UHGV virus genome: UHGV-0214148
DNA length: 64,000 nucleotides
Strand: one strand, 5' to 3'
DNA from: a virus
A model generated the notes under the pieces. The model was not told the DNA's origin. It saw only the letters and a program-made list of their open reading frames with translations, and searched no databases. Below are positions 43,171-59,181 of this stretch, piece after piece (position 1 is the stretch's first letter; each line of letters begins with the position of its first letter). A program made the translations under genes and the position numbers.

Positions 43171-43172
43171 TC

Positions 43173-43907: not shown

Positions 43908-43962
43908 GTTGAATTCTCCTGTTAGTCTACATTAAAATAGTTACAAACGTTAAAAAGAAAGA

Positions 43963-43993
43963 CCCTCCTGTACCACGAATGGGTACAGGAGGG
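43963..43993 (-). terminator. stem-loop terminator (CCCTCCTGTACC / GGTACAGGAGGG)
   Basis: 12-bp stem; A-rich plus-side flank; immediately downstream of gene 43998..44456. Confidence 0.55.
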
Positions 43994-43997
43994 GGTG

Positions 43998-44456: not shown

Positions 44457-44960
44457 TCACTCCTTAGAAGACGTTAGCGTCTTTATGATCTCCTGTCGAA
44501 AGCTGTTCGCATTTAAATTGCCAACAGGTCTCGCCGAAGCCTCTTTACGTTGTTCTGGTGTTGAAGCTGGATTAACAGGAGTTTCTGGTTTTGTCGAAGA
44601 CAGATCCTTCGCCGTACCGCTCGCTTTCGATGAATTAAACGTGCTTTCATATGGCGGTTTCTGGCCGAGGCAAACGAAGAGCCTGTCGTATAACTTCCCA
44701 TTATCTTCTTTTAGTTTATCTCGATCTTGTTTCATCTCTTGGTAAGACTGCGACATATAAGTGTCATGAGACTGCACTGCAACGAGCGCGTGAAACTGTT
44801 GTACATAGGCGTAGGAGACGAAGCCAGAATACGACAACAAGATCGTGATGATTAAAGTCATTATCTTGCTTGCTCTTGATACGTTTTCTCCTTCTCCTGG
44901 TTTAAATGCTTCCATTAACATCTGAAGGAAGAACGGAAGCACTTTAAAAAATGAACCCAT
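44457..44960 (-). CDS. membrane protein with periplasmic coiled-coil (candidate inner spanin-like)
   Basis: 167-aa ORF; TM segment IMTLIITILLSYSGFVSYAYV then charged helix (EMKQDRDKLKEDNGKLYDRL); stop abuts the next start. Confidence 0.5.
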   Translation of the reverse strand: MGSFFKVLPFFLQMLMEAFKPGEGENVSRASKIMTLIITILLSYSGFVSYAYVQQFHALVAVQSHDTYMSQSYQEMKQDRDKLKEDNGKLYDRLFVCLGQKPPYESTFNSSKASGTAKDLSSTKPETPVNPASTPEQRKEASARPVGNLNANSFRQEIIKTLTSSKE

Positions 44961-44985
44961 TGCTCACCTCGGAGTATTTTTAATT

Positions 44986-46359
44986 ATGTTAGACTTACAA
45001 GGTTTTATTCAGATACCGGCACTGTTTGACAATCAGGACGGCGTCACCGCTCCGGTGGGCGAGCTGTCGGATTTGACACTCTCGTACGCGAAGAGTAAAC
45101 AGACGTTTACTAAAACCAATTTGCAAGTTCAATTGGTGACTTTTACGTCTAAACGAGAAAAACAGACGGTTGTTGTACCAGCCGAATTTTCTGATCATAT
45201 TCTAACCGTTTCTCAATGGATTTACCAGCAAGCCATCTTGGGGAATCTGAGAAATGACGAACTCGAATTCCAGCGCCTGTTATTAGGCCAATTCCAATCA
45301 ACCATTTCTGGTGTTCAGTCTGGTGCGATGATACAGACGAACAGTAACTGGTTCCCACGTTGGGTGAGCTGGAAATATGAAGTAACGGCAGATCAAGTAC
45401 AAGATGACACTGATGTAGATAATCAGATCATTGTTTGGTTCTCGGATGAAGACTTCGATCAAGATTACACAGGGTTCGAAATCGAAGTACAGATGCCGAT
45501 TTCACCAATCGACACATTTTTGTCGACCAAGTCAGTCGTTGAAAAGGCGATGGAAGGGTTTAACCTTACCGAACACCATAAGAAAATCAATGAGTTAATG
45601 GCAGGGTTTCCTTACACCGCTATCCAAACCAACTACTATACTTGGCACGATCAAGAAAACTACGAGTCTACCTTAGTTGTCCCCATGTCGGTTATTATCT
45701 ACGGACGTGCGGGAAAAAACCCAACGAAAATAAAGCAAGCGTTGCGTGAACATATTCTCGCTAATTCCAGCTTTACTGTCCCTATCGGGGTAAAAGTATT
45801 TCCCGAAATTTTCACTACCACGAAATTTACAATTGTCCCTGGATGGAAAATTCGTGGGATACCCAATGAGGAAGATGTGGCGGCGCTTTATTCCCCCATC
45901 CTTCCATATGATTTCTGGGTCAAAGCTATCAGTCGGTTTGGAGAATGGGCAGACCAGACGGTAGCAGAAAGAAATACTAAAACGATCAGTAAACCTACAA
46001 CAGACGTAACTGACTTACCAACAGTTTATAAATCATTAAACTGTGTTGTAATCAGTGGGCCGGAAAACGATACGCGGAAAGCGACCTTACACGAAACTAT
46101 CCCGGATTATGCGTTAATTGCGACGACTAACCCTGATATTGCGCGTATGTCGAAAACAACGACCGAATGGTTGGCGTTATTTTTCCAGGCACTTATTGCT
46201 GCGGAAGAATACCACCCGTATCAAACCAGCTTGGATATTGTAAAACTGGTCGATGAGGCTGACCCTGATAACTACTTCTGGGTGTTTGAATACGACAACG
46301 TAGAATATCGTATCCTGTCTCGGAAAGCGAAATGGTACACCGAGTTAGACGAGGAGTAA
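44986..46359 (+). CDS. hypothetical protein
   Basis: 457-aa plus-strand ORF, divergent from 44457..44960 across 25 bp. Confidence 0.6.
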   Translation: MLDLQGFIQIPALFDNQDGVTAPVGELSDLTLSYAKSKQTFTKTNLQVQLVTFTSKREKQTVVVPAEFSDHILTVSQWIYQQAILGNLRNDELEFQRLLLGQFQSTISGVQSGAMIQTNSNWFPRWVSWKYEVTADQVQDDTDVDNQIIVWFSDEDFDQDYTGFEIEVQMPISPIDTFLSTKSVVEKAMEGFNLTEHHKKINELMAGFPYTAIQTNYYTWHDQENYESTLVVPMSVIIYGRAGKNPTKIKQALREHILANSSFTVPIGVKVFPEIFTTTKFTIVPGWKIRGIPNEEDVAALYSPILPYDFWVKAISRFGEWADQTVAERNTKTISKPTTDVTDLPTVYKSLNCVVISGPENDTRKATLHETIPDYALIATTNPDIARMSKTTTEWLALFFQALIAAEEYHPYQTSLDIVKLVDEADPDNYFWVFEYDNVEYRILSRKAKWYTELDEE

Positions 46360-46362
46360 TGA

Positions 46363-46986
46363 ATGGCTACGCGTTTACCACTCCAGGTACCAGTCAACAC
46401 CACGGGACTGTTCAAAGTAAAAACACCATTTACTTTAGCCGAGACGGTCATTTATACGGTAGAAGCGTCACGTACCTTCCCAGATTTAGTACGTCAGAAT
46501 ATTGACGTTTATAACTCGTATTACCAGCCAGTAGGGCTAGGACGTGAAGAATATTTAGCAGATGCGAATGTTAGTGCGTCGATCCTGACATTTAAATCTC
46601 GGGACGGTCAAGTTGTATACATACCTGACACCTACCTGGAATCATACCCAGGTTTATCCGGGATCACGTATCAACGAAATGTGTTAGTGGTAGATTTGGC
46701 ACTGGTACCGGATTACGTGAAAGTGTCGTCTATAACAAAAGACGTTTCAGATATTCTCACGCATACACTAGGGATTGAGCCGAAAGTTGAAATCACAACG
46801 CTCGAGTATGAAGGGAAGGTAACGGAGGAACAACACTTGCAGATGGAAGCGGCACGAAAAAATAAAATTCGTGAATCTATTCCATTAGGTGAGAAAGTTG
46901 CTGCGTTGACAGAAGAGAACAAAAAATTAAAAGAGTTAAACAACCAAATGTTAGAGATTCTTAAAGCTAACGGGTTAGTTAACTAA
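46363..46986 (+). CDS. hypothetical protein
   Basis: 207-aa ORF, coupled to 44986..46359; followed by bidirectional terminator. Confidence 0.55.
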   Translation: MATRLPLQVPVNTTGLFKVKTPFTLAETVIYTVEASRTFPDLVRQNIDVYNSYYQPVGLGREEYLADANVSASILTFKSRDGQVVYIPDTYLESYPGLSGITYQRNVLVVDLALVPDYVKVSSITKDVSDILTHTLGIEPKVEITTLEYEGKVTEEQHLQMEAARKNKIRESIPLGEKVAALTEENKKLKELNNQMLEILKANGLVN

Positions 46987-46992
46987 AAAGAT

Positions 46993-47018
46993 TACCCTAC
47001 TCCTTCGGGAGTAGGGTA
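46993..47018. terminator. bidirectional terminator, CCCTACTCC/GGAGTAGGG stem family
   Basis: TACCCTACTCC / GGAGTAGGGTA stem, TTCG loop, A-run before and T-run after; between convergent genes. Confidence 0.65.
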
Positions 47019-47027
47019 GCTTTTATT

Positions 47028-47579
47028 TTAAATGTCGACTTCTAGTTTACGGTAATCGATGACGCCTTGAGCAATCATAGCAGCAACATCGTTCCAGGTA
47101 CGAAAAATGAAGTAAACTGTGTCTCCGTTTAAAAAGATGTTAGATTCTTTATCCGGGAAATCATCTTCACTGAGGTAGTAGTAGGGTTTGTCGAATGGGA
47201 AGTCGCGCTCATCAGAGGAACCAAGTACCGCATAACGATTGCCACAATCAAACAGAATCTTCCAACCAGACATTTCACTATTAGCGTCAATACGATCGTC
47301 GATTTCAACGGTAATAGGAGAACGATCAAGAAAGCTGATTGTAACCTCCCCGTTATGCTGTCGTTTAAATCGACGAATATCTGTAGGCACAATTTCAGAT
47401 GCTGCTATAAGGGAATAAAGTTGTGTTACGGTGATCTTTTTGTAAACACTATCGCCATCCCACAAACGATCAAATAAGAAATTAGCCAGGAAATTTATAT
47501 CCTTTAAACGTGTGCGGAAAACAGAACCACGGCGAATACCGTAAGCCAGATGAGTTAAATATTCAGACGATGGAAACAT
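47028..47579 (-). CDS. hypothetical protein, paralog of 47641..48573
   Basis: 183-aa ORF; N-terminus MFPSSEYLTHLAYGIRR parallels MTFPSEVIYELANTLRRR; conserved SD context. Confidence 0.55.
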   Translation of the reverse strand: MFPSSEYLTHLAYGIRRGSVFRTRLKDINFLANFLFDRLWDGDSVYKKITVTQLYSLIAASEIVPTDIRRFKRQHNGEVTISFLDRSPITVEIDDRIDANSEMSGWKILFDCGNRYAVLGSSDERDFPFDKPYYYLSEDDFPDKESNIFLNGDTVYFIFRTWNDVAAMIAQGVIDYRKLEVDI

Positions 47580-47610
47580 TTTAATACTCCTAAGGTGGAA
47601 AAAGAATTAA

Positions 47611-47632
47611 CCCTACTCCCGGAGGAGTAGGG
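47611..47632 (-). terminator. stem-loop terminator, CCCTACTCC/GGAGTAGGG stem family
   Basis: Same 9-bp stem as 27649 and 46993; between the paralogs 47641..48573 and 47028..47579. Confidence 0.55.
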
Positions 47633-47640
47633 GATTTAAA

Positions 47641-48573
47641 TTACTTTTTGGTTTGACCAAGGTTTTCAAGAACCAGTTCACGAATGTACTTCTGAGTACG
47701 TTTTTTCGGCGGTAGAGCCATAAGAGTGTCAACGATTCCCTGGCCGCCGATAACCTTGCTGACGAGTTGTTGAACTTGGAAGAGTTCTGCTTCTTCGTCA
47801 CTGATCTCATTAGCTTGGTCTTTCTGACACAACGCTTCTACCAGGTCAGCTACGGATATTTCATTTTCGTCACCGGGGAAATCCAGGTTTAACGATTCGA
47901 AAACATCACGCTTAACGAGTACAGATTTCAGATCATCGTAGTTTTCACAAACGGCGACTTCTGTGCCAGGTACCGTTTCTTCTTCGTCTTGATCTTCATT
48001 CTCAGAGGCGAAGTAACTTACTTCTGTTGCGTGGAACGTTGCGTCAGCTTTTCTCAGTACGTAGCTCACATGCGACCAATTGCTCAGGATGAAGTAGACA
48101 ACACCCCCAATTAATCCGATGTTGCCCTGGCGAAGTTCGAGAGCAATTTCCAGGCGGCGTGAAATCTCACCCAAACCAAAGAAAGTCTCGTCGCAGGCCG
48201 CAACAACTTCGTACTGATTCACTCCTTGTTCTACAACAACGTACCAGTTATCCGGGAGAGGATACGGGTTGTGCATGAAAGAAAGTTCGTTCCCTGCGCC
48301 TGGGTCAACAGTAACGGATGTATGGCGCATTCCCATGGAGAAGTTGAACGTATCCCCGTTTTGAACCGCAATTGCACCGTCAATCGGAAGAATTTTGGTG
48401 GCACGATCAATAGAGAAAATCGCTTCCTGTGTAATTGAAGACTGATTACTGCCTAGGAAGTGATTACGCAGAAAAGCAGCGGTTTCACCTACAGTGGTTT
48501 GTAGCATATGGTAGTTATAACGACGACGCAGCGTGTTAGCCAGTTCGTAAATTACTTCAGATGGAAAAGTCAT
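47641..48573 (-). CDS. hypothetical protein, paralog of 47028..47579
   Basis: 310-aa ORF; acidic insertion (ENEDQDEEE); followed by a hairpin with the same stem as the one after its paralog. Confidence 0.55.
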   Translation of the reverse strand: MTFPSEVIYELANTLRRRYNYHMLQTTVGETAAFLRNHFLGSNQSSITQEAIFSIDRATKILPIDGAIAVQNGDTFNFSMGMRHTSVTVDPGAGNELSFMHNPYPLPDNWYVVVEQGVNQYEVVAACDETFFGLGEISRRLEIALELRQGNIGLIGGVVYFILSNWSHVSYVLRKADATFHATEVSYFASENEDQDEEETVPGTEVAVCENYDDLKSVLVKRDVFESLNLDFPGDENEISVADLVEALCQKDQANEISDEEAELFQVQQLVSKVIGGQGIVDTLMALPPKKRTQKYIRELVLENLGQTKK

Positions 48574-48626
48574 TTTAATAGTCCTCTTTTAGGTTTGTTC
48601 AAATCAACTAAGGGTTATGTAAAAAG

Positions 48627-49106
48627 TTAAAATAAAGGCAAGTTACGCCATTGTCCTACCGAGTAAAAAGCTTTTGGATGTTTACGGATATACGCTTTCG
48701 CTTCTTCTGGCAACCAACGATCGCCTGCCAGTTTTTGTTGTGCAACAATTACCGCCATCAACAAATAAGGGTTTTTCGCACCGGGGAACTTTGCATTGGT
48801 TTCTAGTGCAATATCCAACATTGACGACCAGCCCAGTAATTTATGTTGCGCCGGTAAACGTTCTTCAATATACATCAGCCATTTCATGATTTGTTTAGGC
48901 TTGTACGGACAGGTATAATTCGCCCAACACACCATGACGAACTTAATAACCTTCGCAATCACCCATACAGGGACAGTCACGAAAAGGCAGAAAATGGCCA
49001 ACTGTGAGGCGGGCGCTTCGACAAAAGTAACCGCTACAAGAACCATACACAGTTCAAGTACCACAAACCAAAAACGCGTTGGATAACGCCAAATGAATTT
49101 TATCAT
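48627..49106 (-). CDS. integral membrane protein
   Basis: 159-aa ORF; several hydrophobic segments (FWFVVLELCMVLVAVTFV, LAIFCLFVTVPVWVIAKVIKFVMV). Confidence 0.55.
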   Translation of the reverse strand: MIKFIWRYPTRFWFVVLELCMVLVAVTFVEAPASQLAIFCLFVTVPVWVIAKVIKFVMVCWANYTCPYKPKQIMKWLMYIEERLPAQHKLLGWSSMLDIALETNAKFPGAKNPYLLMAVIVAQQKLAGDRWLPEEAKAYIRKHPKAFYSVGQWRNLPLF

Positions 49107-49139
49107 AACTCTGTTCCTTTAGGGAATGAAAATAAAAGT

Positions 49140-49167
49140 ACCCCTTACTCCGTATAGGGTAAGGGGT
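49140..49167 (-). terminator. stem-loop terminator (ACCCCTTAC / GTAAGGGGT)
   Basis: 9-bp stem with A-rich plus-side flank; downstream of gene 49173..49682. Confidence 0.45.
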
Positions 49168-49172
49168 AGAAG

Positions 49173-49682
49173 TTAGAAGAACGGCTGATTTGGAATGACA
49201 GCGTACTCTAAAATGAACATATGTTCCGGGGCGTCTTCTTTACGCCAGACTTTGTGTGTCGACACAAGTTTTTCCAGAATCGTTAAGAAACTACGTTGGC
49301 AGTATGTGTTTTCACCAAGCAGTAGATTTTGAAGTTCTACAGTAGCGTCCATATACGCCTGTTTAAAGACTAAACTACGGTTATACTGCCCGGTAAAATT
49401 CCAAAGCAAGACCTTCCCTTCTTCGGTTTCTTTTACCGTTGGCCGTAAACCACAAATCCACAGTAAGGCAAGGTTGACGTTCCAGTCAAACTCTAAACCT
49501 TCTTCTTCGTCAACACCGAATGCTGTGGGTAAAGCATCGTAAAATTCGTGTTTCTCTGCGAATTCTTCATCCGACTTAATCTCGTCTTCGATACTGCTTC
49601 GGACGATACTGTAAACGTCTTTCGCGGTCAATTGTGCGGCTTTTGTAATGCCTTTATACCAATCGGTTACTACGATGCTCAA
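49173..49682 (-). CDS. hypothetical protein
   Basis: 169-aa ORF; 4-bp overlap with upstream gene. Confidence 0.55.
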   Translation of the reverse strand: MSIVVTDWYKGITKAAQLTAKDVYSIVRSSIEDEIKSDEEFAEKHEFYDALPTAFGVDEEEGLEFDWNVNLALLWICGLRPTVKETEEGKVLLWNFTGQYNRSLVFKQAYMDATVELQNLLLGENTYCQRSFLTILEKLVSTHKVWRKEDAPEHMFILEYAVIPNQPFF

Positions 49683-50404
49683 AGGGTAACTCCTCTATTG
49701 ATTGGAAAACTCGTGTTTATCGTATCCCAAATTCTACTAACTTCCGCCAGTTGAATCTGACGTGGTGTTTTCTTCGCAAACGCAAGCTGACGTGGGGCCG
49801 AGCCCACAACAACAGGCACATCGATTTTCGCGCTATAGAACGCGGCGTCTTTCATAAAGCCTGCCATTTCTCGTTGTGCTGCTCGAGATTTGCTTTTGAT
49901 TCGCGTGTGAGCGCCACTTTCACCCCAGTGGTAAGCTAACGCAACTTCAGCCATGGTGGGCTTGCGTTTGAGTCGTTTGGTTAACCCCTTCTCAAGATGT
50001 TTAACATACGCAGTAGCCAGCAAAACAGCGTTACGCGGATTATACAAATCGGCATTCTGACTAAGACCTAATTCTTTTCCATAAAGCTTTAGCAGATTAC
50101 GCTTGGTACTTGGAAGCATCTGTACCAGGCTGTGTGCTCGTGAGCTTTTGTTGTAAGCCTTGGGATCAAAACGCGATTCACGATAAATCAGTGTAATCAT
50201 CAGCTTGGGATCAACGCCCTGCTTTCGTGAGATTTCCACAATTAACGGGCTGACTTTTTCGAACCGATGTTGGATTTGTGCAAACTCTCGCTGATGCTTA
50301 GAATGTGGCGTTGACGTTGACGCCTGTGCGTTAAACGCGAAAAGTGTTACCAGTAAAAGAAAGAAGATACGAAACATTTTGTTTCTCCAGTTGGATTTAT
50401 ACAT
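49679..50404 (-). CDS. secreted lytic transglycosylase (SLT domain)
   Basis: 241-aa ORF; signal peptide MFRIFFLLLVTLFAFNAQAS; LIYRESRFDPKAYN...SLVQMLPST matches family-1 lytic transglycosylase motifs. Start may be the internal Met (MFRIF). Confidence 0.7.
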   Translation of the reverse strand: MYKSNWRNKMFRIFFLLLVTLFAFNAQASTSTPHSKHQREFAQIQHRFEKVSPLIVEISRKQGVDPKLMITLIYRESRFDPKAYNKSSRAHSLVQMLPSTKRNLLKLYGKELGLSQNADLYNPRNAVLLATAYVKHLEKGLTKRLKRKPTMAEVALAYHWGESGAHTRIKSKSRAAQREMAGFMKDAAFYSAKIDVPVVVGSAPRQLAFAKKTPRQIQLAEVSRIWDTINTSFPINRGVTL

Positions 50405-50462
50405 TTCCGTATTCCGTAAGACGAAATGACGGCGCGGACAGCTAATACTCCTTTGTTGTGTG

Positions 50463-50488
50463 CCCTAATGATAATATCTATTTAAAAG
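50463..50488. promoter_or_regulatory. AT-rich promoter-like motif CCCTAATGATAATATCTATTTAAAAG
   Basis: Same core; upstream of the secreted transglycosylase gene, overlapping the stop of the macro-domain gene. Confidence 0.35.
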
Positions 50489-51038
50489 AGTTTGGAATTA
50501 ATGACTCTGCTTCTTGGTACAGCTTATCAGGTAAGTATAACGTGTAGCGCTGCCTCCTCGGTTCAAGTTTTTTGTAAAGCCACAAAAAGATTTCTTGTCT
50601 TTCCCAGGAATCTAACCACCCATTTGCCATTCCCAACGGAGGGATAGCAACGCTGGTATCCAGATCCTCAACACAGTCTGCTAATGCGGTAATGCCCGCA
50701 GTAACATAAGAAACCTGGGATTTTAAACGCCAATGTGTTTTCGTGGGGAGCAAGATACACTTTTCGTCAGAGTAAACGTAAACGCTTCCAATCTTAATTT
50801 CGTCTTCACGACACCGCTTACGATAATCCTGATAAAGGTTGGGGTAGCGTTCACGACACGCGAGTGCAATACCGCGACCCATTGCTCCTACGCAGTTAAT
50901 GGTAACGACTTTATAGTCTTCGGGCGCATTAAAAAGATCGTTACCAATTTCAGATTCTTTACGTACCGTTAACATAACGAAACGCCCGGAGTTGATGTGT
51001 AGTATTAAAACGTGTACCGCCGATTGATAGCTCGACAA
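50478..51038 (-). CDS. macro-domain (ADP-ribose hydrolase-like) protein
   Basis: 186-aa ORF; VVTINCVGAMGRGIALACRERYP ... LLPTKTHW ... VAIPPLGMANGWLDSW follows the pattern remembered for TARG1/DarG-type macro domains. Confidence 0.55.
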   Translation of the reverse strand: MSSYQSAVHVLILHINSGRFVMLTVRKESEIGNDLFNAPEDYKVVTINCVGAMGRGIALACRERYPNLYQDYRKRCREDEIKIGSVYVYSDEKCILLPTKTHWRLKSQVSYVTAGITALADCVEDLDTSVAIPPLGMANGWLDSWERQEIFLWLYKKLEPRRQRYTLYLPDKLYQEAESLIPNSFK

Positions 51039-51062
51039 GTATAGCGATATATGTTTTACCCA

Positions 51063-51431
51063 TTATCGATTTTTCGTAATCCATTGCTTGACCGCCGCTT
51101 CTAAACCTTCGTGTTGTAAGCCCAGGCGCTGCATAGTCAGTGACAAGTTAAGCGTGTGGACGACCTGCTCACGGAACTGATGATCGTTCATACGGTCCCA
51201 GACATTCTCTACTGAAATATTGTGTTTCCAGAGCAAATAAGCTTCACGACACGATGCGCGACGAACTAAACTGGGTTTAACAAAAGGCAACTCGATTTCA
51301 GGCAAGTAACCTAAAAGCTTAACTAACGGCGTTACCTGCGTCTTACCGAAGTCACCACATTGATAACAAATTTGCAGAATATCAATTTCATTCAACGGTA
51401 TGCCGTAAATTGATGGGTTCTCTGTGAACAT
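51063..51431 (-). CDS. hypothetical protein
   Basis: 122-aa ORF; GAGGAGAA SD. Confidence 0.5.
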   Translation of the reverse strand: MFTENPSIYGIPLNEIDILQICYQCGDFGKTQVTPLVKLLGYLPEIELPFVKPSLVRRASCREAYLLWKHNISVENVWDRMNDHQFREQVVHTLNLSLTMQRLGLQHEGLEAAVKQWITKNR

Positions 51432-51633
51432 TCATATTCTCCTCAGGCTCGAAATGTGATTCGGGTGGCAACGTCCCTAAAGCCCCTTGGATACAAGCCG
51501 TCAGTGAAGGTTTGCCGAAACAGACCTTACCTATCGTCCCCACATTGGGATGCTGTAAGAACGCTTTCGCACGTTCGTATTCTTTCCAACAAATACTCGT
51601 ATCCAAACCACCCACTCCGTACGATTTTAACAT
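51388..51633 (-). CDS. hypothetical protein
   Basis: 81-aa ORF with AGGAGAG SD; 3' end overlaps downstream gene by 44 bp. Confidence 0.4.
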   Translation of the reverse strand: MLKSYGVGGLDTSICWKEYERAKAFLQHPNVGTIGKVCFGKPSLTACIQGALGTLPPESHFEPEENMNVHREPINLRHTVE

Positions 51634-51699
51634 AATTAGCTCTCCTGACGTAAATTTCTCACACTCATAGTGAGGTACGCCAAGAGAGCTTTATTGTTT

Positions 51700-52143
51700 T
51701 TAGAATGTTTTGCTAAAATCGACCCACTCACGATCGTGTGAGTAAACCGCTTGATAGCCGCGTCGGATGAAATACTCTTTTGCTTCTTTACATTTCGCAT
51801 ACATGCCAGTAACAATCTCGCCGAAAACTTCATCAGCTGCAATTGCTTTGAAAATCTCTTTCATTACACCCCGTTGACGATAGTCTGGGAGCACGTATAC
51901 CGAACGTATCTTAAGTGAACCGTTACGATTCCGATAACTACAGTATCCTACCGCGACATCATCCTGATACACCAGAACTATGCAGTTACCTTCGATCAGC
52001 TGTCGCGCATTTAACTTCGGCACCGACGTTTTGATTTTCAGTAACGTGGCCTGGTGGTCTAAGTAACGGTAGTGTAGTTTGAGTAAATCGGCAGCTTGAC
52101 GCTCACCGACTTTAGAAGATGCGTTCAACAAATAAATTTCCAT
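51700..52143 (-). CDS. GNAT-family N-acetyltransferase
   Basis: YVLPDYRQRGVMKEIFKAI matches the acetyl-CoA-binding motif. Start set to ATG at 52143 (track ORF begins at a TTG two codons upstream). Confidence 0.6.
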   Translation of the reverse strand: MEIYLLNASSKVGERQAADLLKLHYRYLDHQATLLKIKTSVPKLNARQLIEGNCIVLVYQDDVAVGYCSYRNRNGSLKIRSVYVLPDYRQRGVMKEIFKAIAADEVFGEIVTGMYAKCKEAKEYFIRRGYQAVYSHDREWVDFSKTF

Positions 52144-52174
52144 TTGCAAACCTTAGAGACGCAAAAAAGTAAAA

Positions 52175-52303
52175 TTAAAACCAACGCACGATGACGAATG
52201 CCGCAGCGGCTAATATGGCCGTGGTGATTATCAATCCACCCCATGAAAGTTCCGCGTCGTATAGTGCGGATATCGCTACATTCGTAGTGTTTATCGAGGT
52301 CAT
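52175..52303 (-). CDS. small hydrophobic protein (42 aa)
   Basis: Hand-translated: MTSINTTNVAISALYDAELSWGGLIITTAILAAAAFVIVRWF; AGGAGCAGAAA SD; below ORF-track size cutoff. Confidence 0.35.
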   Translation of the reverse strand: MTSINTTNVAISALYDAELSWGGLIITTAILAAAAFVIVRWF

Positions 52304-52317
52304 TTTCTGCTCCTAGT

Positions 52318-52341
52318 AATACCCTCACGTCGGAGGGTATT
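52318..52341. terminator. stem-loop (AATACCCTC / GAGGGTATT) between small membrane protein genes
   Basis: 9-bp stem followed on plus by TTTT; a second hairpin (GGGCGTTT/AAACGCCC) lies about 15 bp further on. Confidence 0.35.
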
Positions 52342-52360
52342 TTCCGGATTATTTGGGCGT

Positions 52361-52459
52361 TTAATCTTCAAACGCCCATCTGTGTTGTTTAACCAGCAAG
52401 TTTAAACCTTTACCGATTAACCACATCGCACCAAGTGTTAACAGAACCCCTTCAACCAT
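52361..52459 (-). CDS. small hydrophobic protein (32 aa)
   Basis: Hand-translated: MVEGVLLTLGAMWLIGKGLNLLVKQHRWAFED; AGGAGAAGGGAAT SD. Confidence 0.35.
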   Translation of the reverse strand: MVEGVLLTLGAMWLIGKGLNLLVKQHRWAFED

Positions 52460-52470
52460 ATTCCCTTCTC

Positions 52471-52656
52471 CTAATTCCGCCATTCGCATTCGCGTTGACG
52501 CCAAATTGAACCCCACGATAGTTTAATCAGATAAGATGAAACTACCCATAAAATCATCACCACACAAAACATGACATAAAGAACCGCTAGAATGGACATG
52601 AAGCCAAACCCTGCCGCATCCACAATACGACGGAACCAATCAGTTTGCATAAACAA
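52471..52656 (-). CDS. small membrane protein (61 aa)
   Basis: Track ORF; long hydrophobic core FGFMSILAVLYVMFCVVMILWVVSSYLI; GAAGGAG SD. Confidence 0.45.
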   Translation of the reverse strand: MFMQTDWFRRIVDAAGFGFMSILAVLYVMFCVVMILWVVSSYLIKLSWGSIWRQRECEWRN

Positions 52657-55144
52657 TTTTTACTCCTTCGTTATACACCGCAGGCAATGTCACCCCTTCC
52701 GGTTCGATGACACAGTACGATGCTTCATTAAGTTTAGAATGAACCTCGGCTTCGTGGGAGACTACCAACAGTTGGGAAAATTCTCCCGAGTTTGCTAACG
52801 TTTTAATAAAGCCGACCAGGTTGTTACGGTGCTCCTCATCCATGCCTTCCGAAGGCTCATCCAAAAGCAACGGAAACTGATGCAACTTCAGCGCTTTGTA
52901 CGCAGTCAGCCTGAACATCAGATTAAATATCGCACGCTGCGCCTTAGATCCTTTACGCACGTCAGGAACAGGCTCAGGATGCGTTTTTAGCTGGACAGGA
53001 AAAGTATAATCCAAATCGCCGTCAGTGAGGTCACAAGGCATAACGCGCATGGGGTACGTCCAGACTTGTTCGATATAACGCGTCATTAACTCTGTGATTC
53101 TAACGATAGCGTTGTAAAAATACTTTCTAAGTACACCCTTTTCTGGCGAGAAGGCTTGAATCATCAGTTTGTTATTGAACTGCTGGGCTTGTAAGTCAGC
53201 AAGTTCGCGTTCCAAACTGTTGAGCTGATTCAATTCATTTTCCATCTGACGATAACGTTCGCGTGCGGTTGTAAAAGCATCCAGCTTCCCTTCTCGAGCA
53301 CGTAAGAGTTCCTCGACGACTGTATTTGTCAACGTAACCTTAACATCACTCTCTAGCCGTTCGAATAACGCACTGAAATCATCTACAGCACGTTTAACAT
53401 TCACCAGATAGGTAAGTGTCGTGTTAGCCAGTTCGTGCTCTCTACGACGCATTGAGAGCATTTCTGTGGCTTTACCTAATCGCGACTGTTGGAAGGCGAT
53501 TTTCTGTTGTAAAGCGCCATCGACGTTACCAACGGCCGCTACGGCATCCTGCCATTCTTTTTCCGCCTTCACTAACCGTTGTCGGGTTTCATGATACTCA
53601 ATAGCAGAGTACAACTCGCTGTCAAACGCTGCGCATAGACTCCCGAACTGTTCACGTGATTCAGTGAAGACGTTACGTTCTTGCAAACGCTTAAAGAACA
53701 TGCTCAATACCGGGTCCTTTGAATACGTCAGTACAATCTCACGAACCTGCCGCATATAAGTTACATCAGATTCTAATTCAACACGATAGCGTAATAGGGC
53801 CTCTAACTGTGTTTGCAGTTCCGTGCGCTGCTGTTGTTGTCCGCGAATCGAAGACTCAAGTTCAGGTAAAGAACGCGTAACACCGGGCCGAAACTTAAAC
53901 CGACACTGCGGGCAATCCACTTCCGCTGTTTCTAAGTAGTGATTACGCTCGTGATTTAAATTCTGTAAAACGTTCTCCACTCGCTGGAGTCTATCCCGCA
54001 ACCCTGCGGTTTTTTGATCCATCACCAGAAGCCGTTCTTCCAAAACATTGAGTTTTTCGGTTGAATGAATTGCGTCCAGCGTTGTTCCTAACCGTTGCCC
54101 CCAGACACGCGCGTCGGTAGCCGCACGAAGTTGGTCTAAATTGACGTTGTCGTTAAATAGACCCGGAAAGAGATGCTCGGTGTCCCATTTGGTAAGTAAC
54201 TCACGTAAACGCGCCAATGTATTCTTGAGACCTTCGTGATTCCGCATCAGGTAGTCTTGTCGTGTTGACTCATCCATCAATAACGACAAGTCTTTATTCA
54301 ACATCGATACCTCTGTTTCAGTAGACACGACAGCTTCGCGGGCCGTCGCTTCGTTTTGTCGCGCGACCAGTATCTGTTCATCGGTAGGCAGGCCACCACG
54401 ATGTTGTAATATTGCGTCGATGGTTGGGCCCAAGCTGTTTAATAACGCTTGGATTGTTTCGATGGTGACGGCACGATTTAATCCTGGCAACTGTTCGATT
54501 TCTCGGTTCAATTCACGTAAATCCGATTCCAAACCTTTTAATCTCGTCGCTAACTGCTGCCGTTCTTCCTCGTTCTCAATAACACGCGTCCGTAATTCGG
54601 CGATCTTGCGGCTGGTGATTTCAATACCCCCATTTAAGGCAGTAAGGTTTTTACGTAAACGTTGATAAAACCCTAACGCGTAAGTGAGGTCAGAGGTACT
54701 TAAACGGTAAAACCATTTGCGGCGTAATTCGGTTCCCGCATCGGTTAACAACACCTCACCATTTAATAGTTCTTTAATCTCTTTCGTAATACCCGTGATT
54801 TCTTCAACACGGGAGTTGTAGACTTTCGCATTACCTTGCTCGACGATCTTTGTCCCCGTGGTCAGGTTCTCAATATCGCAAACCAAAGAGTTGCCTTTAC
54901 GGGCAACTTTGAATCGATAGCGTTGATCGCCAACTAAACAGTAGTTCGTGTAAGAACCGCCGTCCCTGAATTCAGTTTTAGCTGGTGCTAAGGGTAAGAA
55001 CACAGACAGTAGACTGGTTTTCCCGCAGCCGTTCCCACCCAGGATAATTGTTGTCGGAGACTGGATAGTGAAATCGAAGGTTTCAATTTCATGTAACCCC
55101 ATCCCCGTAAAACCTTTGAGTATAATGCGTTCAACTTTTAGCAT
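52640..55144 (-). CDS. Rad50/SbcC-like SMC-family ATPase
   Basis: Walker A GGNGCGKTS at N-terminus; long coiled-coil centre with CPQC zinc-hook-like motif; C-terminal LLLDEPSEGMDEEH (Walker B) and VVSHEAE. Start set to ATG at 55144 (GGAGGTG SD). Confidence 0.75.
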   Translation of the reverse strand: MLKVERIILKGFTGMGLHEIETFDFTIQSPTTIILGGNGCGKTSLLSVFLPLAPAKTEFRDGGSYTNYCLVGDQRYRFKVARKGNSLVCDIENLTTGTKIVEQGNAKVYNSRVEEITGITKEIKELLNGEVLLTDAGTELRRKWFYRLSTSDLTYALGFYQRLRKNLTALNGGIEITSRKIAELRTRVIENEEERQQLATRLKGLESDLRELNREIEQLPGLNRAVTIETIQALLNSLGPTIDAILQHRGGLPTDEQILVARQNEATAREAVVSTETEVSMLNKDLSLLMDESTRQDYLMRNHEGLKNTLARLRELLTKWDTEHLFPGLFNDNVNLDQLRAATDARVWGQRLGTTLDAIHSTEKLNVLEERLLVMDQKTAGLRDRLQRVENVLQNLNHERNHYLETAEVDCPQCRFKFRPGVTRSLPELESSIRGQQQQRTELQTQLEALLRYRVELESDVTYMRQVREIVLTYSKDPVLSMFFKRLQERNVFTESREQFGSLCAAFDSELYSAIEYHETRQRLVKAEKEWQDAVAAVGNVDGALQQKIAFQQSRLGKATEMLSMRRREHELANTTLTYLVNVKRAVDDFSALFERLESDVKVTLTNTVVEELLRAREGKLDAFTTARERYRQMENELNQLNSLERELADLQAQQFNNKLMIQAFSPEKGVLRKYFYNAIVRITELMTRYIEQVWTYPMRVMPCDLTDGDLDYTFPVQLKTHPEPVPDVRKGSKAQRAIFNLMFRLTAYKALKLHQFPLLLDEPSEGMDEEHRNNLVGFIKTLANSGEFSQLLVVSHEAEVHSKLNEASYCVIEPEGVTLPAVYNEGVKIVYAN

Positions 55145-55194
55145 ACCCACCTCCATAAAGACGGAGTGTGGTGTAAAAAGAAAAAAATAAAGAA

Positions 55195-55218
55195 AGGGAG
55201 AACCCGAAGGTTCTCCCT
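55195..55218 (-). terminator. stem-loop terminator (AGGGAGAACC / GGTTCTCCCT)
   Basis: 10-bp stem, CGAA loop, long A-run on plus side; between gene 55223..55831 and the ATPase gene. Confidence 0.6.
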
Positions 55219-55222
55219 AACG

Positions 55223-55831
55223 TTATTTGGTATACAGCTGATAACCCATTGAAGCCCAATAATCAATGTTCTTCGCGTTTTCTACCCAAACCTGTCCCGC
55301 CTTTGTGGCTAAGACTTCCATTGTCAATGTACAGATCAGATTTGTTACCTGGATACAATTTCCAGGTGTAACATCATCCAGATAAACCGGATATAAAAAC
55401 GGCGATTTAATGGATTGGTACGGGTAAGAATAGTGGCTACCGACTTTCCACCCTTCTTCTACAGGGCAGAGATTATAAGTGCGTGTTTCAGGAACTGCGT
55501 TTTCAGAGATCCAGTTAACAACATCGGCTTTGATTCGATCGTGGTCGATATAGTAGAACACAACACGTTGTGGGATACTTGTGGTACCAGCCGGGTCTAA
55601 AGCCTCCAACGCCTTAAAAGGCGACGTTAACAATGTTGTACTGTTCTCAAGTGCGTAAACCAACTTTTCGTAAGCGGTTGGCGTTTTGCGTTTAAAATAT
55701 TCCCGTAAGCGAGGGTACGCCAGGAAGCCCTCTACTTCTTCTTCCATTAAGTCAATGAATAAAGGCGTATGCGAAAATCGCTCTGCATTTTGCATCGCTT
55801 CAAGAAAACGAACTAATGTAATTTCGTTCAT
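55223..55831 (-). CDS. hypothetical protein
   Basis: 202-aa ORF upstream of the ATPase; no Mre11/SbcD phosphoesterase motifs seen. Confidence 0.55.
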   Translation of the reverse strand: MNEITLVRFLEAMQNAERFSHTPLFIDLMEEEVEGFLAYPRLREYFKRKTPTAYEKLVYALENSTTLLTSPFKALEALDPAGTTSIPQRVVFYYIDHDRIKADVVNWISENAVPETRTYNLCPVEEGWKVGSHYSYPYQSIKSPFLYPVYLDDVTPGNCIQVTNLICTLTMEVLATKAGQVWVENAKNIDYWASMGYQLYTK

Positions 55832-55861
55832 CTGGTCTTTCCTTTTAGATCAAAAAAAGAA

Positions 55862-55879
55862 GCCCCGAGTAAACGGGGC
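55862..55879 (-). terminator. stem-loop terminator (GCCCCG / CGGGGC)
   Basis: GC stem preceded on plus by AAAAAAAGAA. Confidence 0.5.
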
Positions 55880-55887
55880 CGGGCTAA

Positions 55888-56364
55888 TTACAGCCCTAAG
55901 TGCGTGAGTGATAAAATAGGTTGTGTTTCACCTTTAATCGTCGCGAAGGAACGATACATTTCTGCGTTACTTGAAAAAACTTCGTTAGCAACGATACATT
56001 CACCCGTCTCTAAAGAAAGGAGATAAATGTAGTCGCTCCATACGCTTTGTACCAACACCCACTCAAGTGCGGTATCATTTTCGCGTGTTGTTCGCAGGTG
56101 GTGAAAGTAAGGACGGATCGCATCAACTGCCGCATTAAAACGACGGTGATAAATTCGGGTTAAATCAAAGGTCCAGATTGTTTCCAGGTCGACTGGATGT
56201 AATGTGCGCACCGTTTCGATAATCGTCGACTGATCGTTAAGGCGCGAGGCTTCGGCGATACGTAGCAGTTTCCAGGCTACCGTTAAGTTGTGGCGAATTT
56301 GTTCAGGTTTAGCCGACAGGTCATGATGAAATTGCGCAGCTTGGTAAACGTTAGATAATTGCAT
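55888..56364 (-). CDS. hypothetical protein
   Basis: 158-aa ORF with conserved SD context; flanked by terminators. Confidence 0.55.
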   Translation of the reverse strand: MQLSNVYQAAQFHHDLSAKPEQIRHNLTVAWKLLRIAEASRLNDQSTIIETVRTLHPVDLETIWTFDLTRIYHRRFNAAVDAIRPYFHHLRTTRENDTALEWVLVQSVWSDYIYLLSLETGECIVANEVFSSNAEMYRSFATIKGETQPILSLTHLGL

Positions 56365-56401
56365 TTTAATACTCCTTTAGGTAAATATGTCGTAAAAAGG
56401 A

Positions 56402-56418
56402 CCCCGGACGTACCGGGG
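56402..56418 (-). terminator. stem-loop terminator (CCCCGG / CCGGGG)
   Basis: GC stem preceded on plus by an A-rich tract; downstream of the secreted-protein gene block. Confidence 0.5.
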
Positions 56419-56430
56419 CCAAGACTACAC

Positions 56431-56820
56431 TCAAAGATCTAATTCGATAGCACCAGCCATCTTGCCCCGTTCTTCTATAACGATCAGATAACGGTCGCGA
56501 GATTTGCTTTTAGCGAGAGTTAAGACAACGGTAGGGTCGCACGTTTTCGTGGTGATAGGAAGAACCTCTCTTGCGACGGAATCGAGCAGAAAGTAATAAC
56601 CTGCGGGACACATTGTGCCGCCATCAGCTTTTACCAGAATATAGCGCCCGTCTGCGCCGACTTCTTGGCAGATTGTTTCACCGACTTCGCAAACTTCAAA
56701 CCCCGGAGGATTGTACTGGTAATCGGTATTGTTGTTTGGGGTTAGCAGTAAATCGTTAACTTGAGTAGATGCTGCTACACTCAGGGAGAAGAAGAATGCT
56801 AAAACGCAGACGAGACGCAT
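56431..56820 (-). CDS. small secreted Cys-containing protein (paralog of 56831..57241)
   Basis: 129-aa ORF; signal peptide MRLVCVLAFFFSLSVAAS; mature part has CQ...G.RY...GG..C pattern shared with neighbour. Confidence 0.55.
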   Translation of the reverse strand: MRLVCVLAFFFSLSVAASTQVNDLLLTPNNNTDYQYNPPGFEVCEVGETICQEVGADGRYILVKADGGTMCPAGYYFLLDSVAREVLPITTKTCDPTVVLTLAKSKSRDRYLIVIEERGKMAGAIELDL

Positions 56821-56830
56821 GAGTTACTCC

Positions 56831-57241
56831 TTAAATTTTAAGTTTATCCATAGCTACAACGATAGGTTTTTCCGAAGTGTCTAATATCCCTACCATTGGC
56901 ACACCATCTACGACTTCGAAGAATGGTTTGTTATTACCAGAGCATAGACGTTTGTCGTTGTATTCGAGACGCTGAGCCTTCCACGTTTCGAGGTTGAGTA
57001 CGGACATTGGGCTGTCGTAGCACCAGGCACCACCTTGCTCAACGATGAATACGTATCTGCTACCTTTGTATTTAAACAGGCTCTTTGCCTGGCAGTACAA
57101 CCCGTCTATTTCCGTACAATAGAAATCATCGGTGCTATTGACGTACTTAATATTGTCTGGCAACTGTATTGTCTTTGCTGTAGCGTTGACAGAGAACAGA
57201 ACAGCCATTGCAATGAGAAGAGTATTAATGATAGTTTTCAT
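56831..57241 (-). CDS. small secreted Cys-containing protein
   Basis: 136-aa ORF; signal peptide MKTIINTLLIAMAVLFSVNATA; shares Cys pattern with 56431..56820. Confidence 0.55.
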   Translation of the reverse strand: MKTIINTLLIAMAVLFSVNATAKTIQLPDNIKYVNSTDDFYCTEIDGLYCQAKSLFKYKGSRYVFIVEQGGAWCYDSPMSVLNLETWKAQRLEYNDKRLCSGNNKPFFEVVDGVPMVGILDTSEKPIVVAMDKLKI

Positions 57242-58633: not shown

Positions 58634-58679
58634 TGAAATGCTCCTTCGAGTTATGGGGAAGCTCCCACAAATTATGAAA

Positions 58680-59051: not shown

Positions 59052-59100
59052 CTTTAGTTCTCCTAAAATGGTTTTCGTTAAGTGAGAGCTTTTGTACTCT

Positions 59101-59177: not shown

Positions 59178-59181
59178 GATG

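What the first reader, a model, noticed from the sequence alone, without database searches (positions are those of the whole stretch)
50478..51038. Phage-encoded macro-domain protein (candidate ADP-ribose hydrolase)
The 186-aa protein has INCVGAMGRGIALAC...LLPTKTHW...VAIPPLGMANGWLDSW, which I recognise from memory as the pattern of TARG1/DarG-type macro domains that remove ADP-ribose from macromolecules. If active, the phage could reverse ADP-ribosylation imposed by host defence toxins of the DarT type or by other ADP-ribosyltransferases. It sits beside a GNAT acetyltransferase and small membrane proteins.
Basis: partly seen in the sequence, partly recalled or inferred. Interest (0 to 1): 0.6.

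Follow-up and report, generated by a model that had tools for sequence, protein, structure and literature searches.

The report
Jumbo-phage anti-DarT macrodomain (AdfM orthologue)
This gene encodes a small stand-alone enzyme copied from a bacterial antitoxin. It most likely lets a giant phage strip ADP-ribose marks that the host DarTG2 defence puts on its DNA, and because that protein family (AdfM) was described experimentally in 2026, this is an ordinary new member rather than a discovery.

Summary
A minus-strand ORF at 50478..51038 carries the quoted motifs. The true protein is 165 aa (ATG at 50975), not 186 aa.

It is a DarG2-type macrodomain:
- Pfam Macro scores above its gathering threshold.
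- NCBIfam and PADLOC DarG profiles hit at about 1e-36, over the macro half only.
- DarG macrodomain crystal structures match at 7.5e-26 (M. tuberculosis) and 9.3e-21 (T. aquaticus).
- The AlphaFold2 model (pLDDT 93.6) is closest to DarG macrodomains (TM 0.83–0.85 normalised to the target).
- The catalytic Lys (K79) and Asn (N27) are conserved, as are both ADP-ribose loops.

The window is colinear with Salmonella jumbo phage SPN3US (Chimalliviridae). The protein is 61% identical to Erwinia phage Asesino gp217 and lies in the same gene order. Asesino gp217 is one of the proteins named AdfM (anti-DarT factor macro) in Cell Rep 2026. In that study PhiKZ AdfM removed DarT2 ADP-ribose from ssDNA, rescued DarT2 toxicity, entered the phage nucleus and protected against DarTG2.

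It is not a DarG antitoxin proper: there is no C-terminal DarT-binding domain and no adjacent darT. Activity, substrate and nuclear import are inferred for this protein, not shown.

Verdict: new member of a known kind, low interest.

The parts
50478..50975 (-). CDS of the 165-aa stand-alone DarG2-type macrodomain protein (AdfM orthologue), stop codon included
   Evidence: ORF. Start fixed by homologue lengths and by in-frame stops upstream in SPN3US and L005. Pfam Macro, NCBIfam/PADLOC DarG and PDB DarG macrodomain hits. AF2 pLDDT 93.6. Foldseek top hits are DarG macrodomains.
50976..51038 (-). In-frame upstream extension of the mechanical ORF (21 codons from TTG); probably not translated
   Evidence: No similarity to the upstream regions of SPN3US or Asesino. 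The TTG reads TCG in the closest relative, and an in-frame TGA interrupts this stretch there.
50895..50897 (-). Codon of Asn27, equivalent to T. aquaticus DarG N22 and PhiKZ AdfM N23 (active-site Asn)
   Evidence: Invariant in alignment A1; 35 of 36 sequences in A2. N22A impairs T. aquaticus DarG and N23A impairs PhiKZ AdfM. Codon read directly.
50739..50741 (-). Codon of Lys79, equivalent to T. aquaticus DarG K80, PhiKZ K78 and EPEC DarG K54 (catalytic lysine), within PTKTHW
   Evidence: Invariant in A1 and in 36 of 36 sequences of A2. K80A and K54A abolish glycohydrolase activity. Codon read directly.
50871..50891 (-). Loop 1 VGAMGRG (residues 29-35), the glycine-rich ADP-ribose-binding loop
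   Evidence: G30, M32, G33 and G35 are invariant across phage and bacterial homologues. It corresponds to the T. aquaticus DarG segment that contains K29 and V31.
50613..50642 (-). Loop 2 PPLGMANGWL (residues 112-121), the diphosphate-clasping loop; W120 is clade-specific (Gly in DarG and PhiKZ)
   Evidence: P112, P113, L114, G115 and G119 are invariant. It corresponds to T. aquaticus G117-G121, the ADPr contacts. W120 is present in 33 of 36 sequences of A2.
50976..51062 (-). 87-nt intergenic region upstream of the gene; no canonical Shine-Dalgarno sequence
   Evidence: Conserved with the closest relative L005. No GGAG/GAGG/AGGA within 20 nt of the ATG, whereas 41 of 63 ORF starts in the window have one. 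Its ACATATATCG motif is unique in the window.
51063..51431 (-). Upstream neighbour: conserved 122-aa protein of unknown function (context, no shown link)
   Evidence: phrog_11720, unknown function. No Pfam, NCBIfam or PADLOC hit. About 41% identical to the region of SPN3US gp072 by tblastx. AF2 model is poor, pLDDT 59.
49679..50404 (-). Downstream neighbour: SLT lytic transglycosylase with N-terminal signal-like hydrophobic segment (likely start at 50377, 232 aa)
   Evidence: Pfam SLT 4.9e-15 and phrog_4067. The 232-aa gene call in L005/L006. Syntenic with SPN3US gp068 and Asesino gp218.
51700..52149 (-). GNAT acetyltransferase about 0.7 kb upstream (context)
   Evidence: Pfam Acetyltransf_1/7/10 above their cut-offs and phrog_3810. 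Syntenic with the SPN3US gp075 acetyltransferase.
52175..52656 (-). Cluster of three small ORFs with hydrophobic segments between the GNAT and SMC genes (context)
   Evidence: ORFs 52175..52303, 52361..52516 and 52471..52656. Equivalent small gene calls in L006, SPN3US and Asesino. The hydrophobic stretches were read from the sequence only.
52640..55156 (-). SMC/Rad50-like ATPase that opens the co-directional gene block (context)
   Evidence: 60% aa identity to the SPN3US gp080 'SMC domain-containing protein'. PF02463 SMC_N on the L006 orthologue.

Best explanation
The gene encodes an orthologue of AdfM (anti-DarT factor macro). It is a 165-aa protein consisting of a DarG2-type macrodomain alone, carried by an undeposited SPN3US-like nucleus-forming jumbo phage (Chimalliviridae) of enterobacteria. 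The proposed mechanism is as follows. When a host DarTG2 system is triggered, the DarT2 toxin ADP-ribosylates thymidines in single-stranded phage DNA at TNTC or TTT/TCT motifs, which are abundant in this genome. The phage protein binds the ADP-ribose moiety in the cleft formed by the VGAMGRG and PPLGMANGWL loops. Lys79, positioned with help from Asn27, then cleaves the thymine-ribose bond and restores unmodified DNA, so that replication and packaging can proceed. Unlike bacterial DarG2 it has no toxin-sequestering domain, so it would act purely enzymatically (a type-IV-like orphan antitoxin). By analogy with Asesino, PhiKZ and PhiPA3 AdfM, it is probably imported into the phage nucleus. Shown here: the fold, the family assignment, the catalytic residues, and orthology and synteny with Asesino gp217. 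Inferred: enzymatic activity, DNA-thymidine specificity, nuclear import and anti-DarTG2 protection for this particular protein.
For: Family assignment:
- Pfam Macro is above its gathering threshold.
- The only NCBIfam hit at E<=1 is antitoxin DarG, 3e-36. PADLOC DarG hits at 3e-37.
- PDB sequence hits to the M. tuberculosis and T. aquaticus DarG macrodomains are 7.5e-26 and 9.3e-21.
- The AF2 model has pLDDT 93.6 and pTM 0.90.
- Foldseek ranks the DarG macrodomains 5m3e, 5m3i and 5m31 first (target-normalised TM 0.83-0.85, rmsd 2.0-2.3 A), then the Thermosipho DarTG fusion, SCO6735 and TARG1.

Catalytic residues:
- N27, K79 and both glycine loops are invariant against T. aquaticus and M. tuberculosis DarG, PhiKZ gp104, Asesino gp217 and SPN3US gp070. 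Among 36 homologues, K79 is present in all 36 and N27 in 35.
- K80A and N22A are the most damaging T. aquaticus DarG mutations, and the macrodomain alone is a sufficient antitoxin.

Orthology and context:
- 61% identity to Asesino gp217 with the same order SMC, small ORFs, acetyltransferase-position gene, AdfM, transglycosylase. Asesino gp217 is named as AdfM and shown to localise to the nucleus.
- The window is colinear with SPN3US at 161-223 kb. Seoulvirus and Erskinevirus are classified in Chimalliviridae.
- PhiKZ AdfM de-ADP-ribosylates DarT2-modified DNA, rescues DarT2 toxicity, and its loss costs 3-6 logs of titre on DarTG2 hosts.
- DarTG2 exists in enterobacterial hosts such as EPEC.
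- TNTC sites are not depleted: 2309 in 64 kb, ratio 1.05 against shuffles.
Against: - No experiment exists on this protein or on its SPN3US-clade orthologues beyond the localisation of Asesino gp217.
- It is only 35% identical to the biochemically characterised PhiKZ AdfM. In a crude NJ tree without bootstraps, PhiKZ gp104 does not group with the SPN3US clade, so transfer of function rests on the shared DarG2-type active site rather than on close orthology.
- There are clade-specific differences in the ligand loops. W120 replaces Gly. A39 replaces T. aquaticus Q34. Asesino itself has His at the N118 position.
- The gene has no recognisable Shine-Dalgarno sequence.
- Chimallin and PicA were not looked for in the window, so the nucleus-forming lifestyle is inferred from synteny and taxonomy.
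Confidence: 0.8

Rival explanations
1. It is a TARG1-like eraser acting on substrates other than DarT2-modified DNA. Candidates are ADP-ribosylated proteins (host or phage ART targets), ADP-ribosylated RNA, or DNA modified on another base. It would then counter a different ART-based defence or tune a phage-encoded ART.
For: TARG1 shares the fold and the catalytic lysine. The ligand loops carry clade-specific substitutions (W120, A39) that could shift specificity. Macrodomains and ARTs are both common in jumbo phages.
Against: Sequence and structure are much closer to DarG2 than to TARG1: 39-42% against about 19% identity, and Foldseek E of 1e-13 against 1e-7. W82, the residue proposed to stack on the modified thymine (T. 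aquaticus W83; Ala in TARG1), is retained. No ART domain was found in the 26 window proteins scanned against Pfam. [quoted passage not shown]
Confidence: 0.12
2. It is a housekeeping ADP-ribose-metabolite enzyme, either an ADP-ribose-1''-phosphate phosphatase or an O-acetyl-ADP-ribose deacetylase of the YmdB/MacroD type. Many database annotations of its homologues imply this ('phosphatase', 'Appr-1-p processing protein').
For: PHROG 335 is labelled 'phosphatase'. Homologues are annotated as 'Appr-1-p processing' or 'phosphatase'. Weak PDB hits to ADP-ribose 1''-phosphate phosphatase appear at E about 0.02-0.05.
Against: Those labels are generic legacy names for any macrodomain. No NCBIfam family other than DarG hit at E<=1. 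The MacroD-type signature Nx6GG[VLI]D (from my own knowledge of that class) is absent, and the protein contains no GG dipeptide at all (read directly from the sequence). The TARG1/DarG-class catalytic Lys is present instead.
Confidence: 0.04
3. It is a non-catalytic ADP-ribose binder or a decayed gene, either a reader domain or a remnant with no anti-defence role in this phage.
For: The gene has no Shine-Dalgarno sequence. The representative of the closest homologue cluster (P0001, 96% identity) carries N27Y at the active-site Asn, which shows that inactivating-looking variants circulate.
Against: In the window protein all catalytic and ligand-contact residues are intact. The ORF is full length and confidently folded. 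It is conserved with the same synteny across Seoulvirus, Erskinevirus and uncultured relatives at 50-96% identity, which argues for purifying selection.
Confidence: 0.04

Closest known systems
AdfM (anti-DarT factor macro) of chimalliviruses: PhiKZ gp104, PhiPA3 gp108, Goslar gp83, Asesino gp217 (Morgan et al., Cell Rep 2026, PMC13309987)
   Same: It is a stand-alone DarG2-type macrodomain of about 160 aa in a chimallivirus-type jumbo phage. The active-site Asn and Lys are conserved. It is 61% identical to Asesino gp217 and sits at the same genomic position.
   Different: It is only 35% identical to the biochemically tested PhiKZ protein. It lacks PhiKZ's insertion before the PPLG loop. It has a clade-specific Trp (W120) in the diphosphate loop and a longer C-terminal helix segment. 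It comes from an undeposited lineage: about 75% nt identity to known phages in its most conserved gene, and 87% to a contig in a Salmonella assembly. Activity and localisation are untested.
Bacterial DarG2 antitoxin of DarTG2 toxin-antitoxin systems (T. aquaticus, M. tuberculosis, EPEC; PDB 5m31/5m3e/5m3i)
   Same: The macrodomain is 39-42% identical with the same fold (target-normalised TM about 0.85). The catalytic K80 and N22 equivalents and W83 are retained, and most ADP-ribose contact residues are retained too.
   Different: There is no C-terminal DarT-binding or sequestering domain: the DarG profiles are covered only over positions 7-155 of 338, and the score of 125 bits is below the equivalog cut-off of 250. 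There is no adjacent darT gene. The gene is encoded by a lytic phage rather than a bacterial TA locus.
AdfN (phage orphan NADAR antitoxin against DarTG1; Johannesman et al., Nat Commun 2025, PMC11825919)
   Same: The strategy is the same: the phage carries an orphan copy of the antitoxin's hydrolase domain and enzymatically erases DNA ADP-ribosylation.
   Different: The fold is unrelated (NADAR against macro). The target is a different base (guanine, DarT1) and a different system. AdfN does not counter DarTG2.
TARG1/OARD1 (human terminal ADP-ribose glycohydrolase; PDB 4j5q/4j5s)
   Same: It belongs to the same macrodomain subclass and shares the catalytic-lysine mechanism.
   Different: It is about 19% identical. 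TARG1 has Ala where DarG and this protein have the thymine-stacking Trp. It is a eukaryotic protein, and its described activity in the source read here is protein de-ADP-ribosylation.

Membership tests
AdfM (anti-DarT factor macro, chimallivirus) | Stand-alone protein consisting of a DarG2-like macrodomain | tested here: met
   The protein is 165 aa. DarG profiles and DarG macrodomain structures cover residues 12-156, and no other domain is present.
AdfM (anti-DarT factor macro, chimallivirus) | Conserved active-site Asn (PhiKZ N23) and Lys (PhiKZ K78) | tested here: met
   N27 and K79 align with them and are invariant in A1. In A2, N27 is present in 35 of 36 sequences and K79 in all 36.
AdfM (anti-DarT factor macro, chimallivirus) | Encoded by a chimallivirus (nucleus-forming jumbo phage) | tested here: inconclusive
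   The window is colinear with SPN3US and includes the split virion RNAP beta genes. Seoulvirus and Erskinevirus are classified in Chimalliviridae. Chimallin and PicA themselves were not looked for in this 64-kb window.
AdfM (anti-DarT factor macro, chimallivirus) | Orthology with a protein named AdfM in the defining paper | tested here: met
   61% identity to Asesino gp217 over the full length, with conserved flanking gene order.
AdfM (anti-DarT factor macro, chimallivirus) | Removes DarT2-made ADP-ribose from ssDNA and neutralises DarT2/DarTG2 | not testable with these tools
   This needs biochemistry and genetics. It has been shown only for PhiKZ, and genetically for PhiPA3.
AdfM (anti-DarT factor macro, chimallivirus) | Imported into the phage nucleus (PicA pathway) | not testable with these tools
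   No import signal is defined at sequence level. Import has been shown for Asesino, PhiKZ and PhiPA3 proteins.
DarG2 antitoxin (NCBIfam NF048014 equivalog) | N-terminal macrodomain with the catalytic lysine | tested here: met
DarG2 antitoxin (NCBIfam NF048014 equivalog) | C-terminal DarT-binding domain; full-length score above the equivalog cut-off | tested here: not met
   Only profile positions 7-155 of 338 are matched, and the score is 125 bits against a cut-off of 250. PADLOC covers 7-152 of 329. The upstream 122-aa neighbour gives no DarG hit either.
DarG2 antitoxin (NCBIfam NF048014 equivalog) | Paired with an adjacent darT toxin gene | tested here: not met
   The neighbours are an unknown 122-aa protein and an SLT transglycosylase. 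None of the 26 window proteins scanned against Pfam gave a DarT or ART hit.
MacroD/YmdB-type macrodomain ('Appr-1-p phosphatase' annotation) | Catalytic signature Nx6GG[VLI]D and G[VIA][YF]G (from my own knowledge of the class) | tested here: not met
   The sequence contains no GG dipeptide. The corresponding segments read NCVGAMGRGIA and PPLGMANGWL. No NCBIfam MacroD/YmdB hit at E<=1.
TARG1/OARD1 subclass | Catalytic Lys (K84) plus Asp (D125) dyad | tested here: inconclusive
   The Lys equivalent is present. The Asp position was not aligned here. Structural similarity is clear but lower than to DarG.

The most novel reading that the evidence does not exclude
The SPN3US-clade stand-alone macrodomains may be a capture of a bacterial DarG2 macrodomain independent of the PhiKZ AdfM lineage. 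Their clade-specific ligand-loop changes (W120 in place of Gly, A39 in place of Gln, and His at N118 in Asesino) may give a different substrate range. Examples would be other DarT variants or motifs, RNA, or protein ADP-ribose. In that case 'AdfM' would be a convergent functional class rather than one orthologous family.
Probability: 0.1. Interest if true: 0.4.

Novelty: new member of a known kind. Interest (0 to 1): 0.2.

Why it matters
It adds one more, fairly divergent, enterobacterial-phage member to the recently defined AdfM anti-DarTG2 counter-defence family, and it corrects the generic 'phosphatase' or 'hypothetical' labels that its homologues carry. On the practical side, it predicts that SPN3US-like Salmonella, Escherichia and Erwinia jumbo phages resist DarTG2, which bears on choosing therapeutic phages. 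It does not open a new question, because the mechanism and biology were published for homologues in 2026.

Tried and rejected
1. Upstream TTG start (186 aa). Rejected on homologue lengths and on in-frame stops in relatives.

2. The conserved 122-aa upstream gene as a split-off DarG C-terminal (DarT-binding) domain. There is no NCBIfam or PADLOC DarG hit. Only 5 homologues were found. The AF2 model is too poor to search with (pLDDT 59, all-helical). The idea is unsupported, and the structural test was inconclusive.

3. A functional link to the GNAT gene. The GNAT is two genes away and only 34% identical to its SPN3US counterpart. Nothing ties it to ADP-ribose chemistry, so I treat it as conserved synteny only.

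4. A phage-encoded ART partner in the window. Pfam scans of 26 window proteins found none. The rest of the genome was not seen.

5. Depletion of DarT2 motifs as an alternative escape route. TNTC is not depleted (ratio 1.05). TTT is slightly depleted and TCT enriched, with no consistent signal.

6. A recurring promoter motif in the conserved upstream intergenic region. The motif is unique in the window, and k-mer enrichment recovered only Shine-Dalgarno-like AAAGGAGTA.

7. Near-identical deposited phage. Megablast found none.

8. tRNA and Rfam scans of the window. Nothing was found.

9. The supplements of the AdfM paper, to check whether the SPN3US group is listed. They are not held.

10. The LeRoux 2022 DarTG defence paper. 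It is not held.

Full report
**Observation.** The window has an ORF on the minus strand at 50478..51038. The 186-aa length comes from the first possible start, a TTG. Three lines of evidence place the real start at the ATG at 50975, which gives 165 aa and a CDS of 50478..50975.
- Every close homologue in a 5.8-billion-protein collection is 161-166 aa, including nine clusters at 90-96% identity that are exactly 165 aa.
- SPN3US has a stop codon immediately before its equivalent ATG, and sequence similarity begins at that Met.
- The closest relative found is a 226-kb contig in a Salmonella enterica assembly, 87.4% DNA identity over window 42500-56832. It has an in-frame TGA 9 nt upstream of the same ATG and reads TCG where the window has the TTG.

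**What the protein is.** All sequence and structure tests point to a DarG-type macrodomain.
- Pfam Macro (PF01661) scores 25.5 bits against a gathering threshold of 22.
- The only NCBIfam family hit at E<=1 is the DarG antitoxin equivalog (3e-36, 125 bits). It covers only profile positions 7-155 of 338 and falls below the full-length cut-off of 250.
- The PADLOC DarG model behaves the same way (3e-37, positions 7-152 of 329).
- Against PDB sequences the best hits are the DarG macrodomains of M. tuberculosis (5m3i, 7.5e-26) and T. aquaticus (5m31/5m3e, 9.3e-21), then the Thermosipho DarTG fusion (7omu).
- An AlphaFold2 model built on 36 homologues is confident (mean pLDDT 93.6, pTM 0.90) and has the mixed beta-sheet and helix order of a macrodomain.
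- Foldseek against the PDB ranks 5m3e, 5m3i and 5m31 first (target-normalised TM 0.83-0.85, rmsd 2.0-2.3 A). The Thermosipho DarTG fusion, SCO6735 and TARG1 follow, and viral nsP3 macrodomains rank at a similar level to TARG1 with higher rmsd.

**Active site.** I aligned the protein with T. aquaticus and M. tuberculosis DarG, PhiKZ gp104, Asesino gp217 and SPN3US gp070.
- Asn27 (T. aquaticus N22, PhiKZ N23) and Lys79 (T. aquaticus K80, PhiKZ K78) are invariant. So are the glycine-rich loop VGxMGxG and the PPLGxxNGxL loop.
- Among 36 homologues, K79 is present in all 36 and N27 in 35.
- In T. aquaticus DarG, K80A inactivates the enzyme and N22A is the next most damaging mutation. W83 is proposed to stack on the modified thymine, and the window protein keeps this residue as W82.
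- In EPEC DarG the equivalent K54A abolishes activity, and the macrodomain alone is a sufficient antitoxin.
- The differences from DarG are W120 (Gly in DarG and PhiKZ; Trp in 33 of 36 clade members), A39 for T. aquaticus Q34, and A117 for T. aquaticus G119. PhiKZ, which is active, also has Ala at that last position.

**Genome context.**
- tblastx shows the window is colinear, in reverse orientation, with Salmonella phage SPN3US at 161-223 kb, at roughly 55-85% aa identity. The shared genes include the split virion RNA polymerase beta subunits, head protease, tail fibre, thymidylate synthase and an SMC-like ATPase.
- The most conserved gene is only about 75% nt identical to any deposited phage, and megablast of the locus finds nothing. 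The window therefore comes from an undeposited lineage of the SPN3US-like group.
- Seoulvirus (SPN3US) and Erskinevirus (Asesino) are classified in Chimalliviridae.
- Around the gene the order is SMC-like ATPase, three small hydrophobic ORFs, GNAT acetyltransferase, unknown 122-aa protein, macrodomain, SLT transglycosylase. All are co-directional, and the order is the same in SPN3US, Asesino and the Salmonella-assembly contig. In Asesino the gene at the GNAT position (gp212) is annotated only as hypothetical.

**Comparison with the literature.** A 2026 Cell Reports paper (PMC13309987) describes this family as AdfM, anti-DarT factor macro.
- PhiKZ gp104 removes DarT2-made ADP-ribose from a TNTC oligonucleotide, and N23A reduces the activity. 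It fully rescues DarT2 toxicity in E. coli and is imported into the phage nucleus.
- Its deletion costs three to six logs of titre on DarTG2-expressing hosts.
- Asesino gp217 and PhiPA3 gp108 also localise to the nucleus, and about half of chimalliviruses carry a homologue.
- The window protein is 61% identical to Asesino gp217 and 64% to SPN3US gp070, but only 35% to PhiKZ gp104. It is 39-42% identical to bacterial DarG macrodomains.
- An exhaustive HMMER scan of 1.84 billion cluster representatives finds 5097 related clusters at E<=1e-3 and only two at E<=1e-30. Many of the rest have the DarG2 architecture, with the macrodomain at the N-terminus of proteins of 335-390 aa.
- A crude NJ tree without support values puts the window protein with SPN3US, Asesino and Caitlin inside a group of stand-alone proteins of about 160 aa, and puts PhiKZ gp104 on a separate long branch. 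Monophyly of AdfM is therefore not established by my data.
- The strategy parallels AdfN, the orphan NADAR antitoxin that phages use against DarTG1.

**Mechanism proposed.** The host DarT2 ADP-ribosylates thymidines in phage ssDNA. The phage macrodomain binds the ADP-ribose and, through Lys79 with Asn27, hydrolyses the base-ribose bond. It acts only enzymatically, because the DarT-sequestering domain of DarG2 is absent. DarT2 motifs are plentiful in the window, with 2309 TNTC sites and a ratio of 1.05 against dinucleotide shuffles, so the phage does not escape by avoiding the motif. DarTG2 occurs in enterobacteria such as EPEC. The fold, the residues and the orthology are shown here. Catalysis, thymidine specificity, nuclear import and protection are inferred.

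**Rivals.**
- A TARG1-like protein or RNA eraser. This is less likely given the much closer DarG2 similarity and the retained thymine-stacking Trp.
- A MacroD/YmdB-type metabolite phosphatase, as legacy annotations suggest. The class signature is absent and the protein has no GG dipeptide.
- A non-catalytic or decaying gene. Intact residues and broad conservation argue against it, although the gene lacks a Shine-Dalgarno sequence and the nearest cluster representative carries N27Y.

**Side tests that led nowhere.**
- The 122-aa upstream protein shows no DarG C-terminal similarity, and its model is unusable.
- No ART domain was found among the 26 window proteins scanned.
- No recurrent promoter-like motif was found upstream.
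- No tRNA or Rfam hits were found.

**Verdict.** The protein is a new, moderately divergent member of the already characterised AdfM family, and it is not a DarG antitoxin proper. Interest is low (0.2).

Noticed in passing
P0001 versus window 50895-50897: The representative of the closest homologue cluster (P0001: 96% identical, 157 member sequences, 1.4-kb ENA contig) has Tyr instead of the active-site Asn27. The equivalent N-to-A change impairs T. aquaticus DarG and PhiKZ AdfM. It may be a natural inactive variant or a sequencing error.
   Followed up: partly
window 50976-51062: The gene has no GGAG/GAGG/AGGA within 20 nt of its ATG, whereas 41 of 63 ORF starts in the window do (typical motif AAAGGAGTA). 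The 87-nt upstream spacer is nevertheless well conserved with the 87%-identical Salmonella-assembly contig. Its ACATATATCG element occurs only once in the window.
   Followed up: partly
whole window; L005 (GCA_014613015.1 contig AAWEAX010000007.1): The window belongs to an undeposited SPN3US-like jumbo-phage lineage. It is at most about 75% nt identical to deposited phages in the vRNAP beta gene, but 87% identical to a 226-kb contig inside a Salmonella enterica genome assembly. This suggests the phage travels with Salmonella cultures, as a carrier state or as contamination.
   Followed up: partly
window 47028-47579 and 47641-48573 (minus strand): Two adjacent genes encode weakly similar proteins (25% identity, E 4e-8), so they are tandem paralogues. 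They have no Pfam hit and no tblastx counterpart in the SPN3US region compared.
   Followed up: partly
window 49679-50404 and 52175-52656 (minus strand): An SLT lytic transglycosylase with a signal-peptide-like N-terminus lies directly downstream of the macrodomain gene; Asesino annotates its orthologue as a putative endolysin. Three tiny ORFs with hydrophobic segments lie about 1.2-1.7 kb upstream of the macrodomain gene. A role in lysis was not examined.
   Followed up: no
window about 36700-41650, 22400-24400, 25500-27650, 58200-63500: These blocks have little or no tblastx match to the syntenic SPN3US region, and the proteins scanned from them have no Pfam hits above threshold. They look like lineage-specific accessory regions and could hold other anti-defence genes.
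   Followed up: partly
phage records H41-H47, H57, H61, H68, H66: DarG-type macrodomains related to PhiKZ AdfM also occur in phages that are not chimalliviruses. Examples are E. coli phages of about 76 kb annotated as podoviruses, Morganella and Proteus phages of about 160 kb, a Vibrio phage and Streptomyces phages. Macrodomain anti-DarT factors may therefore not be tied to the phage nucleus.
   Followed up: no
whole window: Relative to dinucleotide-preserving shuffles, TCT is enriched (z +7.7) and TTT depleted (z -5.9), while TNTC is near expectation. This is probably a codon-usage effect rather than avoidance of DarT motifs.
   Followed up: no
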